Below, one piece after another: positions 31,234 through 32,000 of a DNA stretch of 32,000 bases. The notes below the pieces were generated by a model. That model was given only the letters and a program-made list of their open reading frames with translations. It searched no databases and was not told where the DNA came from. Location: positions 25,585-57,584 of the forward strand of contig JAQVTI010000004.1 in NCBI GenBank assembly GCA_028700115.1. Reading direction: 5' to 3'. Numbering within the stretch: the stretch's first letter is position 1; each line of letters begins with the position of its first letter. The translations under genes were made by a program, and so were the position numbers. Origin of the DNA: Candidatus Iainarchaeum sp. (GTDB taxonomy: Archaea; Iainarchaeota; Iainarchaeia; Iainarchaeales; CSSED10-239).

Positions 31234-31305
31234 GCCCTAGTAGTCTATCGGTTAGGATGCGACCCTGTCAAGGTCGCGGGACGGGTCCGACTCCCGTCTA
31301 GGGCG
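31234..31305 (+). tRNA. tRNA-Asp (anticodon GTC), 72 nt, no encoded CCA
   Basis: Hand-folded cloverleaf. Acceptor stem gccctag/ctagggc, anticodon stem cgacc/ggtcg with loop ctGTCaa, T stem acggg/cccgt. A T-run follows. Confidence 0.85.
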
Positions 31306-31425
31306 CTTTTTTTAATATTTTTATAAATACCTTTAAATACTTTTATCTACTTTAATATTTATAGTTAAAGCAATTTCTTTTTAATAATTTTAAAAATTAA
31401 ATGTTTTATCTGTTTAATGTATTTT

Positions 31426-31508
31426 GCAGAGGTGGCGGAGTGGTCAAACGCACTAGCCTGCTAAGCTAGAGTCTTTGGACTACACGGGTTCGAATCCCGT
31501 CCTCTGCG
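31426..31508 (+). tRNA. tRNA-Ser (anticodon GCT), type II with a long variable arm, 83 nt, no encoded CCA
   Basis: Acceptor stem gcagagg/cctctgc, anticodon stem ctagc/gctag with loop ctGCTaa, variable arm agtc-tttg-gact, T arm acggg-ttcgaat-cccgt. Confidence 0.85.
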
Positions 31509-32000
31509 TAACCGGTTTCGCTCGGTTAATGCGCAATGGTTGTAAGCAGTTGACACCCAATGGTAAGCAGTTTGCTGTAAGTAGCTTTAAACAGTGGCTT
31601 TATAACAAAAAGTTTGTAAAAGACTATGAAGTTGGATTAATTAACAAATTATCCTTATTATTTGTAAAAGAGCAAAAACATACGTATACTTTTTCTGAGC
31701 TATCTGATATAATTAAAATAAAATTAGAACAGATAAATGAAGACAAATATCTTAATAGATTAGTAAGACAGATCTTAAATTATTTGTTAGAAAGTGATAT
31801 TGTATCTGATAATGATGTGTCTTATATTAAAAAGAAATTAAAAACTAAGCAATATAATGCTGATAACTATGTACCTACAGACACTGAAATACAGAAAAAT
31901 CTTTCAAAGTTAACTACAAATAATAGATTAGTGTCATTAGTGTCATTAGTGTCGGGTGTAAGGAAGGTAGAATTGAACTATTTGATAAAGAACTTAAATA
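31509..32000 (+). mobile_element. probable left edge of a tRNA-Ser-integrated element (virus, plasmid or island)
   Basis: An integrase gene abuts the tRNA 3' end. The DNA after 31508 is visibly less AT-biased than the rest of the window. Confidence 0.5.
31529..32000 (+). CDS. tyrosine recombinase / integrase, N-terminal part (runs off the window end)
   Basis: Absent from the ORF track because no stop lies in the window. The frame is open from 31457 to 32000 with its first ATG at 31529. YVPTDTEIQKNL...LVSLVSGVRKVELNYLIKNL matches the start of the catalytic domain (xP[TS]xxEixxLl...xxTGxRxxELxxL), including the first catalytic Arg context. Confidence 0.6.
   Translation, partial: MRNGCKQLTPNGKQFAVSSFKQWLYNKKFVKDYEVGLINKLSLLFVKEQKHTYTFSELSDIIKIKLEQINEDKYLNRLVRQILNYLLESDIVSDNDVSYIKKKLKTKQYNADNYVPTDTEIQKNLSKLTTNNRLVSLVSLVSGVRKVELNYLIKNLN

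What the first reader, a model, noticed from the sequence alone, without database searches (positions are those of the whole stretch)
31426..32000. Integrase gene abutting tRNA-Ser, with its reading frame open through the 3' half of the tRNA
A tyrosine-recombinase ORF starts 21 nt after the tRNA-Ser discriminator base (ATG 31529). The same frame is stop-free back to 31457, that is from the anticodon arm to the 3' end of the tRNA. Base composition also becomes less AT-biased after 31508. This fits integration of a mobile element at the tRNA 3' end. The open frame across the att-like region is also compatible with an SSV-type integrase gene that is split by its own integration; this is speculative, because an intact ATG exists. 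The ORF contains a 9-nt triplication ttagtgtca/ttagtgtca/ttagtgtcg (31928-31954, LVSLVSLVS) just before the catalytic Arg segment.
Basis: partly seen in the sequence, partly recalled or inferred. Interest (0 to 1): 0.6.

Follow-up and report, generated by a model that had tools for sequence, protein, structure and literature searches.

The report
Self-split integrase at tRNA-Ser junction
This is the left end of a ~15-kb mobile element that inserted into a serine-tRNA gene of a tiny DPANN archaeon and cut its own integrase gene in two, a mechanism already known from heat-loving archaea and here seen in a host group where I found no published description.

Summary

- **Contig path.** The window ends at a contig end. 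Unique 127-nt overlaps continue it as C1 to C44 to C18(-).
- **attR.** About 15.1 kb downstream lies a 54-55-nt direct repeat of the tRNA-Ser(GCT) 3' part. It is not a tRNA.
- **Int(N).** An 80-codon ORF with a CcdA-like ribbon-helix-helix start reads into attR in the same phase as the window's integrase frame.
- **Rebuilt gene.** Joining the halves through att gives a 362-aa ORF. It is collinear with unsplit homologs.
- **Family.** The catalytic half is Pfam PF16795, the SSV1 family, with the R/K/KxxR/R/Y set.
- **The ATG.** In 30 metagenome loci and 5 related genomes the homologous frame also starts inside a co-directional tRNA, usually with no ATG after it. The ATG at 31529 is seen only in this copy and its closest relative.
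- **The 9-nt triplication.** It is real, but it is a homogenised stretch of a conserved helix of unchanged length, not an insertion.

The mechanism is known ("suicidal" integrases). The host group (Iainarchaeota-like DPANN) is not described in the literature I could search. This scan had already found the same thing, including the attR end of this very element.

The parts
31425..31509 (+). tRNA-Ser(GCT), an intact hybrid gene (attL). The 5' part is host DNA; the 3' part from about 31455-31476 onward is supplied by the element. It is the only Ser-GCT tRNA in the assembly.
   Evidence: ARAGORN. In the 93%-identical relative L044 the 3' half is identical while the 5' half differs.
31455..31508 (+). 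attL core. This 54-nt stretch is repeated at attR (C18:28990-29043, minus strand). It starts 5 nt before the anticodon and ends at the discriminator base. The mismatches to attR are at 31476, 31477 and 31484, plus 31509 just outside.
31455..31475 (+). Inferred strand-exchange region (anticodon stem-loop). These 21 nt are identical in attL and attR and lie 5' of all the mismatches that sort as element-type (attL) versus host-type (attR).
   Evidence: this is an inference
31457..32000 (+). int(C), the larger half of the split integrase gene. The frame runs out of the tRNA and continues off-window to C44:501, about 306 codons from 31457. The window holds the att-encoded linker, the central domain and the first catalytic residue.
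31510..31527 (+). Short inverted repeat (AACCG-N8-CGGTT) directly after the tRNA. It lies in a 42-nt segment (in own sequence; 21 nt in L042 and L061) that two other Ser-GCT relatives (L052, L073) lack. Its function is unknown.
31529..31531 (+). Incidental ATG. In the rebuilt gene it is an internal Met. It is shared only with L044; it is ACG in L042 and L061 and absent in L050, L052, L066 and L073.
31542..31562 (+). 21-nt in-frame tandem duplication (7 codons) in the linker. It is shared only with L044.
31928..31954 (+). 9-nt unit x3 (LVS LVS LVS). It is a homogenised version of the conserved helix LxYLxYLxSG before the catalytic Arg, with the same length as in homologs. It is shared with L042 and L044. 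L052 has a 2-copy variant.
31961..31963 (+). Codon of the first catalytic Arg (SGVRKVE). It aligns with an invariant column and with SSV1 R211 by family position.

Best explanation
The region is attL of a ~15.1-kb integrated element. The element's tyrosine integrase is of the SSV type (type I, 'suicidal').

**In the free circular element (inferred).** The integrase gene is one 362-codon ORF with four parts:
- a CcdA-like ribbon-helix-helix N-terminal module;
- a linker whose DNA is attP, identical to the 3' 54 nt of the host tRNA-Ser(GCT);
- a central domain;
- a PF16795 catalytic domain.

**The integration event.** Recombination between attP and the tRNA gene, with strand exchange inferred in the anticodon stem-loop, inserted the element. 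It rebuilt an intact tRNA from host 5' and element 3' sequence. It also cut the integrase gene in two:
- int(C) runs out of the tRNA at the window's end;
- int(N), 57 own codons, lies 15 kb away and reads into the leftover host tRNA 3' half (attR).

**Shown by sequence:** the two att copies, the in-phase halves, the family membership, and the same layout in many relatives.

**Inferred:** the circular form, the crossover position, and that the split gene is inactive, so that excision needs an integrase supplied in trans or by a remaining free copy, as published for this family.
For: - **Contig path.** The joins C1(+) to C44(+) to C18(-) rest on unique 127-nt overlaps.
- **attR.** It is a partial tRNA copy, 51/55 identical.
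- **In-phase int(N).** The int frame stays open for 57 codons upstream of attR, back to an ATG.
- **Rebuilt protein.** The fused 362-aa protein is collinear end to end with unsplit homologs.
- **Family.** PF16795 at E 1.3e-27 and phrog_5127 at E 1e-30; the phrog profile is 355 positions long, which fits the fused length and not int(C) alone. The best PDB matches are the SSV1 integrase C-domain entries 4DKS, 3VCF and 3UXU, with KxxR and the Tyr aligned. R30, K64, K104, R107, R130 and Y140 are invariant.
- **Relatives, int(C).** Copies sit after tRNA-Thr or tRNA-Met with no ATG.
- **Relatives, int(N).** Cognate int(N) ORFs read into the matching tRNA fragments and give the same peptide.
- **Halves on one contig.** Both halves lie on a single contig in G010:C7 and in L074.
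- **Metagenome loci.** The frame starts inside a co-directional tRNA in 30 of 63 loci.
- **Host-type versus element-type bases.** They sort as predicted.
- **No element in a relative.** G003 has nothing between tRNA-Ser and the neighbouring gene.
- **RHH module.** It matches CcdA (PDB 2ADL, E 1.7e-5; Pfam CcdA in 7 of 8 members). It is shared with Int-pT26-2 (hhalign probability 93.8%).
Against: - The element spans three contigs. The joins are inferred from end overlaps, not from reads.
- Own synteny with the G003 'empty site' is imperfect. The neighbouring gene is inverted there and nothing further along is conserved.
- Two Tyr positions of the helix before the catalytic Arg (the first conserved across the family) are Ser in this copy, so this copy's activity is uncertain.
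Confidence: 0.93

Rival explanations
1. It is an ordinary (type II, pNOB8- or lambda-like) integrase. On this reading the gene is complete, starts at ATG 31529 and lies beside but outside att. The open frame through the tRNA and the ORF before attR would be coincidences.
For: - An ATG exists 21 nt after the discriminator base.
- The open stretch through the tRNA alone has roughly a 1-in-3 chance.
Against: - The ATG is not conserved even among tRNA-Ser(GCT)-targeting relatives.
- Most homologs have no start codon after the tRNA.
- An in-phase int(N) with a conserved RHH module is present here and in at least 4 other elements.
- Unsplit homologs carry that module N-terminally.
- The domain is PF16795, not PF00589 with a SAM-like N-domain.
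Confidence: 0.03
2. The split integrase is correctly identified, but this copy is a dead fossil. On this reading it was inherited vertically, its halves are drifting pseudogenes and it can no longer move.
For: - After integration both halves are pseudogenes by design (PMC8371274, PMC7253208).
- Two Tyr positions of the helix before the catalytic Arg (the first conserved across the family) are Ser here.
- A 95%-identical relative (L042) already carries an 11-nt duplication that shifts the frame.
- A 21-nt duplication sits in the linker.
Against: - Both halves are free of stops, and all six catalytic residues are kept.
- L044 has the same integrase, LVS triplet and 21-nt duplication (94.7% aa identity). 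Yet it sits beside a left flank with no DNA or protein similarity to ours. This argues for recent horizontal movement of this variant.
Confidence: 0.3
3. It is an assembly artefact. On this reading attR and int(N) on C18 belong to a different element or strain, and the true continuation of the window is something else.
For: - The contig breaks inside int(C).
- The genome holds other SSV-type remnants on C7, C10, C20 and C23.
Against: - The overlaps are exact and unique at both ends of C44.
- attR is the Ser-GCT 3' half, and no other Ser-GCT tRNA exists in the assembly.
- Phase and peptide match across att.
- The other remnants target tRNA-Thr.
Confidence: 0.03

Closest known systems
Int-pT26-2, the suicidal integrase of Thermococcus sp. 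26/2 plasmid pT26-2 (GU056179, gene t26-1; Badel et al. 2020, PMC7253208)
   Same: - It has a PF16795-type catalytic domain (tblastn E 2e-10).
- attP lies inside the gene and corresponds to the 3' part of a tRNA starting near the anticodon (51 bp there, 54 here).
- The N-terminal CcdA-like RHH module is shared (hhalign probability 93.8%, E 1.8e-7), followed by an att-encoded linker.
   Different: - Identity is only about 28% over 80% of the catalytic half.
[quoted passage not shown] Here and in 30 related loci they are co-directional.
- The host here is a small, 21% G+C DPANN archaeon, not a hyperthermophile.
SSV1/SSV2 integrases of Sulfolobales fuselloviruses (type I archaeal integrases; PDB 3VCF, 4DKS, 3UXU)
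   Same: - They belong to the same Pfam family.
- The KxxR and nucleophile Tyr are aligned.
- Identity is 27-33% over the catalytic domain.
- The gene is partitioned into a short int(N) and a long int(C) by integration into a tRNA gene.
   Different: - The first 100 residues of SSV2 Int and of Aeropyrum globular virus 1 Int show no match to the RHH profile.
- The element here carries no recognisable fusellovirus genes.
pNOB8-type (type II) archaeal integrases and XerA
   Same: They are tyrosine recombinases, and type II integrases also target tRNA genes.
   Different: - Their att site lies outside the gene, and they have the PF00589 domain with a SAM-like N-domain (PMC8371274).
- XerA is a core chromosomal gene. 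The gene here is PF16795, split, and present in only 7 of 41 related genomes.

Membership tests
SSV-type (type I, 'suicidal') archaeal integrases | Catalytic domain of Pfam Phage_integr_3 (PF16795), the domain that the review PMC8371274 assigns to the SSV, pTN3-like and pT26-2-like suicidal families | tested here: met
   E 1.3e-27 and 97 bits against a cut-off of 27, covering profile positions 4-160 of 161; phrog_5127 integrase at E 1e-30
SSV-type (type I, 'suicidal') archaeal integrases | Active-site set R...K...KxxR...R...Y (SSV1 R211, K278, R281, Y314) | tested here: met
   IKYCRKW and HYLS align to SSV1 IKYFRKF and HYVS. R30, K64, K104, R107, R130 and Y140 are invariant in 17 sequences.
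SSV-type (type I, 'suicidal') archaeal integrases | attP lies inside the integrase ORF, so that integration leaves int(C) at one end and int(N) at the other, joinable in frame through att | tested here: met
   int(N) is in phase for 57 codons before attR. The 362-aa fusion is collinear with unsplit homologs. The same layout occurs in G001, G006, G010 and L074.
SSV-type (type I, 'suicidal') archaeal integrases | att is the 3' part of a tRNA gene, present as a direct repeat at both ends, and the tRNA is restored | tested here: met
   A 55-nt repeat, 51/55 identical; attL is a full tRNA and attR is not
SSV-type (type I, 'suicidal') archaeal integrases | Site-specific integration and excision catalysed by the full-length protein | not testable with these tools
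   This needs an in vitro recombination assay, or junction reads.
pT26-2-like integrase family (criterion in PMC8371274: at least 30% identity over at least 60% of the protein) | Sequence identity threshold to family members | tested here: inconclusive
   28.4% identity over 80% of the catalytic half by tblastn. The N-terminal module is related. Full-length clustering was not run.
pNOB8-type (type II) integrases / XerA | att site outside an intact gene; PF00589 with a SAM-like N-terminal domain; for XerA, a core chromosomal gene | tested here: not met
   No PF00589 hit; att lies inside the gene; the gene is present in 7 of 41 related genomes

The most novel reading that the evidence does not exclude
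The split may not be fully 'suicidal' in this lineage. After integration, the 80-aa Int(N) would remain a stand-alone ribbon-helix-helix DNA-binding protein. It is still the last gene of its three-gene operon and could act as a regulator or as an att-binding factor. The lineage-specific ATG at 31529, placed just after a tRNA that has lost its T-run terminator, would let Int(C) be made by read-through from the tRNA promoter. The two pieces, or Int(C) alone at low efficiency, could then support excision without a helper.
Probability: 0.08. Interest if true: 0.7.

Novelty: new member of a known kind. Interest (0 to 1): 0.4.

Why it matters
- **Host range of the mechanism.** Self-splitting integrases have been described and discussed as a trait of hyperthermophilic archaea and their viruses and plasmids (PMC7253208). 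In the phage and plasmid collections searched here, every hit was to such hosts.
- **What is new here.** The same design is common in small, AT-rich, Iainarchaeota-type DPANN archaea: 7 of 41 related genomes and dozens of metagenome loci, targeting at least seven tRNA species. So the paradoxical design is not tied to high temperature.
- **Practical value.** It gives a marker (a start-less PF16795 frame running out of a tRNA) for delimiting mobile elements in DPANN genomes, whose mobilome is almost unknown.
- **For this genome.** It delimits a 15-kb element that carries a type III restriction-modification system.
- **Limits.** The mechanism itself is textbook. This scan has already reported it several times, including the other end of this element.

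Tried and rejected
1. **IMG/VR viral contigs.** Neither the catalytic half nor a 7-sequence alignment found a relative. I therefore could not show a free viral form of a close relative.
4. **Direct family scans of int(N).** Alone they gave only sub-threshold CcdA hits (E 0.03-0.08). The RHH assignment rests on the 8-member profile.
5. **Whether the RHH module is general to the SSV family.** It was not found in SSV2 Int or in Aeropyrum globular virus 1 Int.
6. **Clean empty-site synteny.** G003 has the same neighbouring gene 88 nt after tRNA-Ser, but inverted, and nothing further along is conserved.
   - G002 and G005 have other DNA after their tRNA-Ser, which I did not resolve.
7. **The 9-nt triplication as an insertion.** I rejected this, because homologs have the same length at that helix.
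8. **A core XerA.** I rejected this on patchy distribution and Pfam family.
9. **Element type.** I could not classify the element as virus or plasmid. No capsid or known replication family was recognised.

Full report
**1. What is in the window**

- ARAGORN finds tRNA-Asp(GTC) at 31234-31306 and tRNA-Ser(GCT) at 31425-31509.
- The + frame that contains ATG 31529 has its last stop (TAG) at 31454-31456. It is open from 31457 to the last base of the window.
- The other two + frames each have a stop in the tRNA 3' half. Being open through the tRNA is therefore about a one-in-three event and proves nothing alone.
- G+C rises from 0.199 before the tRNAs to 0.281 after 31510. About 7% of host windows of that size are as G+C-rich.

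**2. Extending the contig**

- The window is C1:25585-57584 of a 0.96-Mb, 47-contig, 21-23% G+C genome, and it ends at the contig end.
- Exact 127-nt end overlaps give one unique path: C1(+) to C44(+) to C18(-).
- On that path, 15.1 kb downstream, lies a 55-nt copy of the tRNA-Ser 3' part. It is 51/55 identical, runs from 5 nt before the anticodon to the discriminator, and sits at C18:28990-29043 on the minus strand.
- This copy is preceded by unrelated sequence and followed by a T-run. ARAGORN does not call a tRNA there.
The element is about 15.1 kb long.

**3. The integrase is split**

- I joined the DNA before attR to attL in a script. The integrase frame then stays open for 57 more codons, back to an ATG.
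- In the integrated state that ORF is 80 codons long (C18 locus L010:2971-3213, minus strand). It reads through attR into the host flank.
- The rebuilt gene is 362 codons. Its product aligns end to end with unsplit homologs from metagenomes: an N-terminal module, a variable linker, a central domain and a catalytic domain.
- The catalytic half (C44:1-498) matches three references:
  - Pfam PF16795 'archaeal phage integrase', E 1.3e-27, over the full profile;
  - phrog_5127, E 1e-30, at profile positions 196-351 of 355; this profile length fits the fused protein and not int(C) alone;
  - the SSV1 integrase C-domain structures 4DKS, 3VCF and 3UXU, with the KxxR motif and the nucleophile Tyr aligned.
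- R30, K64, K104, R107, R130 and Y140 (C44 numbering) are invariant across 17 family members. Only the first Arg (31961-31963) lies inside the window.

**4. The same layout recurs**

*Related genomes.*
- Seven of 41 related genomes, including this one, hold a PF16795 gene.
- In G001, G002, G006, G010, G014 and on this genome's own contig C7, the frame runs out of a tRNA (Thr-GGT or Met-CAT), or begins at a contig end with tRNA-derived peptide, usually with no ATG after it.
- Homologs of int(N) in G001, G006 and G010 each read into a partial tRNA fragment. Each gives the same peptide as the start of the cognate int(C).
- In G010, int(C) and int(N) lie on one contig and one strand, about 8 kb apart.

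*Metagenome loci.*
- Of 63 metagenome loci examined, 30 have the frame starting inside a co-directional tRNA. The targets are Ser-GCT, Ser-GGA, Thr-GGT, Met-CAT, Arg-CCT, Asp-GTC and Val-TAC. Two more distant loci have an antiparallel tRNA-Cys.
- L074 carries a complete 4.8-kb element with an in-phase, RHH-type int(N) on a single contig.
- Several proteins and loci (P0009, P0024, P0025, P0030, P0086, P0090, L093, L112) are unsplit. They show the T-loop-encoded peptide in the linker.

**5. The ATG and the small repeats**

- Six other loci are integrated in tRNA-Ser(GCT). Only L044 (93% nt identity) shares the ATG. L042 and L061 have ACG there, and L050, L052, L066 and L073 lack the segment altogether. 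The ATG is therefore incidental.
- At the triplet, homologs read L-x-Y-L-x-Y-L-x-S-G with the same length. L073 still shows the imperfect ancestral 9-nt periodicity.
- This copy, L042 and L044 have it homogenised to LVS LVS LVS. L052 has only two units.
- The triplication is therefore real, but it is a slippage- or conversion-prone stretch of a conserved helix and not an insertion. It replaces two Tyr with Ser.
- A 21-nt in-frame duplication (about 31542-31562) is shared only with L044.
- L042 has an 11-nt duplication that breaks the frame.

**6. Which part of the tRNA is whose**

- attL and attR differ at 31476, 31477 and 31484, and just outside at 31509. The first 21 nt of the repeat are identical.
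- *Host-type bases.* Same-genus genomes with a T-run after the tRNA have the attR-type bases at 31476-77 and the attR-type trailer.
- *Element-type bases.* L044 has a different tRNA 5' half but a 3' half identical to this genome's attL.
- This fits strand exchange within 31455-31475, the anticodon stem-loop, with the element supplying the tRNA 3' end. This step is an inference.
- The hybrid gene is the only Ser-GCT tRNA in the assembly, so it must work.

**7. Mobility**

- L044's int(C) is 94.7% identical in protein to this one. Its 6-kb left flank has no DNA or protein similarity to this genome's left flank, apart from a tRNA-Asp 3.6 kb away. This suggests recent horizontal spread of this very variant.
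- G003 has no element between its tRNA-Ser and a homolog of this genome's right-flank gene, which lies 88 nt away. That gene is inverted relative to ours, however.

**8. The N-terminal module**

- A profile of eight int(N) starts hits the ribbon-helix-helix part of CcdA (PDB 2ADL, E 1.7e-5) and Pfam CcdA in 7 of 8 members.
- The profile matches the N-terminus of Int-pT26-2 (hhalign probability 93.8%).
- It does not match the first 100 residues of SSV2 Int or Aeropyrum globular virus 1 Int.
- Published work places multimerisation in the N-terminal part of SSV integrases (PMC8371274), which is consistent with an RHH dimer module. That link is my inference.

**9. The element's cargo**

- It carries a type III restriction-modification pair:
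  - Mod, with PF01555, E 9e-36;
  - Res, with PF04851 and helicase domains.
- It also carries a four-helix-bundle '23S rRNA IVP' protein, a winged-helix-like regulator, a 531-aa P-loop protein and several membrane proteins.
- No capsid or known replication family was recognised. Whether it is a virus or a plasmid is open.
- int is the last gene of a three-gene operon and overlaps the preceding ORF by 26 nt.

**10. Host and literature**

- A same-genus genome is titled 'Candidatus Iainarchaeum archaeon'. Earlier notes of this scan call the host an Iainarchaeota DPANN archaeon.
- In the phage and plasmid collections, every hit is to viruses or plasmids of Sulfolobales, Thermococcales, Aeropyrum or Archaeoglobus, at about 30% identity.
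- The mechanism is described in PMC7253208 and PMC8371274. The review PMC8371274 contains no mention of DPANN.
- No paper in the library combines 'SSV-type integrase' with DPANN or with DPANN phylum names.
- This scan has already reported the same mechanism in DPANN genomes several times. That includes the attR end of this very element, finding e1-2517440. I reached the same result independently before reading it.

**11. Verdict**

- It is a clean new member of a known kind in an undescribed host group.

Noticed in passing
C18 locus L010:9593-13399 (minus strand), off-window: The element carries a type III restriction-modification pair. Mod is 513 aa (PF01555) and Res is 754 aa (PF04851 plus helicase domains). 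It is probably the element's cargo or an addiction module.
   Followed up: partly
G000 contigs C7:40-925, C23:288-557, C10:3156-3317 (contig end), C20:9995-10177: The same 0.96-Mb genome holds further SSV-type remnants.
- C7 has an int(C) running out of tRNA-Thr(GGT).
- C23 has an RHH-type int(N) reading into a different tRNA-Thr 3' fragment.
- C10 has a second int(N) start at a contig end.
- C20 has an int(C) tail at a contig end.
There are therefore at least two more elements.
   Followed up: partly
L042:148-760 (metagenome contig Ga0172382_10224675): This 95%-identical copy of attL-int(C) has an 11-nt tandem duplication that shifts the frame. It is an example of the split half decaying after integration.
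   Followed up: partly
L052 (metagenome contig Ga0114934_10026770), aligned to window 31928-31954: This relative has two units instead of three of the 9-nt LVS repeat. The stretch therefore varies in copy number, which might also explain why the assembly breaks just after it at window 32000.
   Followed up: no
G010:C7 (L022), int(N)/attR end: Here the repeat shared by the two ends extends beyond the tRNA into integrase coding sequence (peptide ISNSGQQFAVSGFK appears in both halves). That is longer than a simple att core. I have no explanation for it.
   Followed up: no
G003:C79:7374-7929 and G005:C42:5558-8679: The homolog of the gene right of attR sits next to tRNA-Ser(GCT) in both relatives, but inverted relative to this genome. 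G005 also has 2.35 kb between its tRNA-Ser and a 46-nt partial tRNA repeat, with no PF16795 gene; this may be a decayed or different element.
   Followed up: partly
window 31234-31306: tRNA-Asp(GTC) lies 118 nt upstream of tRNA-Ser. tRNA-Asp(GTC) is itself a target of this integrase family in metagenome loci L060, L064 and L065. In L044 the two tRNAs are 3.6 kb apart.
   Followed up: no
metagenome loci L058, L071, L080 (proteins P0001, P0003): These are close homologs (63-70% identity in the catalytic half). Their N-terminal region has neither an RHH module nor a tRNA-like linker, and no tRNA is adjacent. They may be a sub-lineage with a different target or architecture.
   Followed up: no
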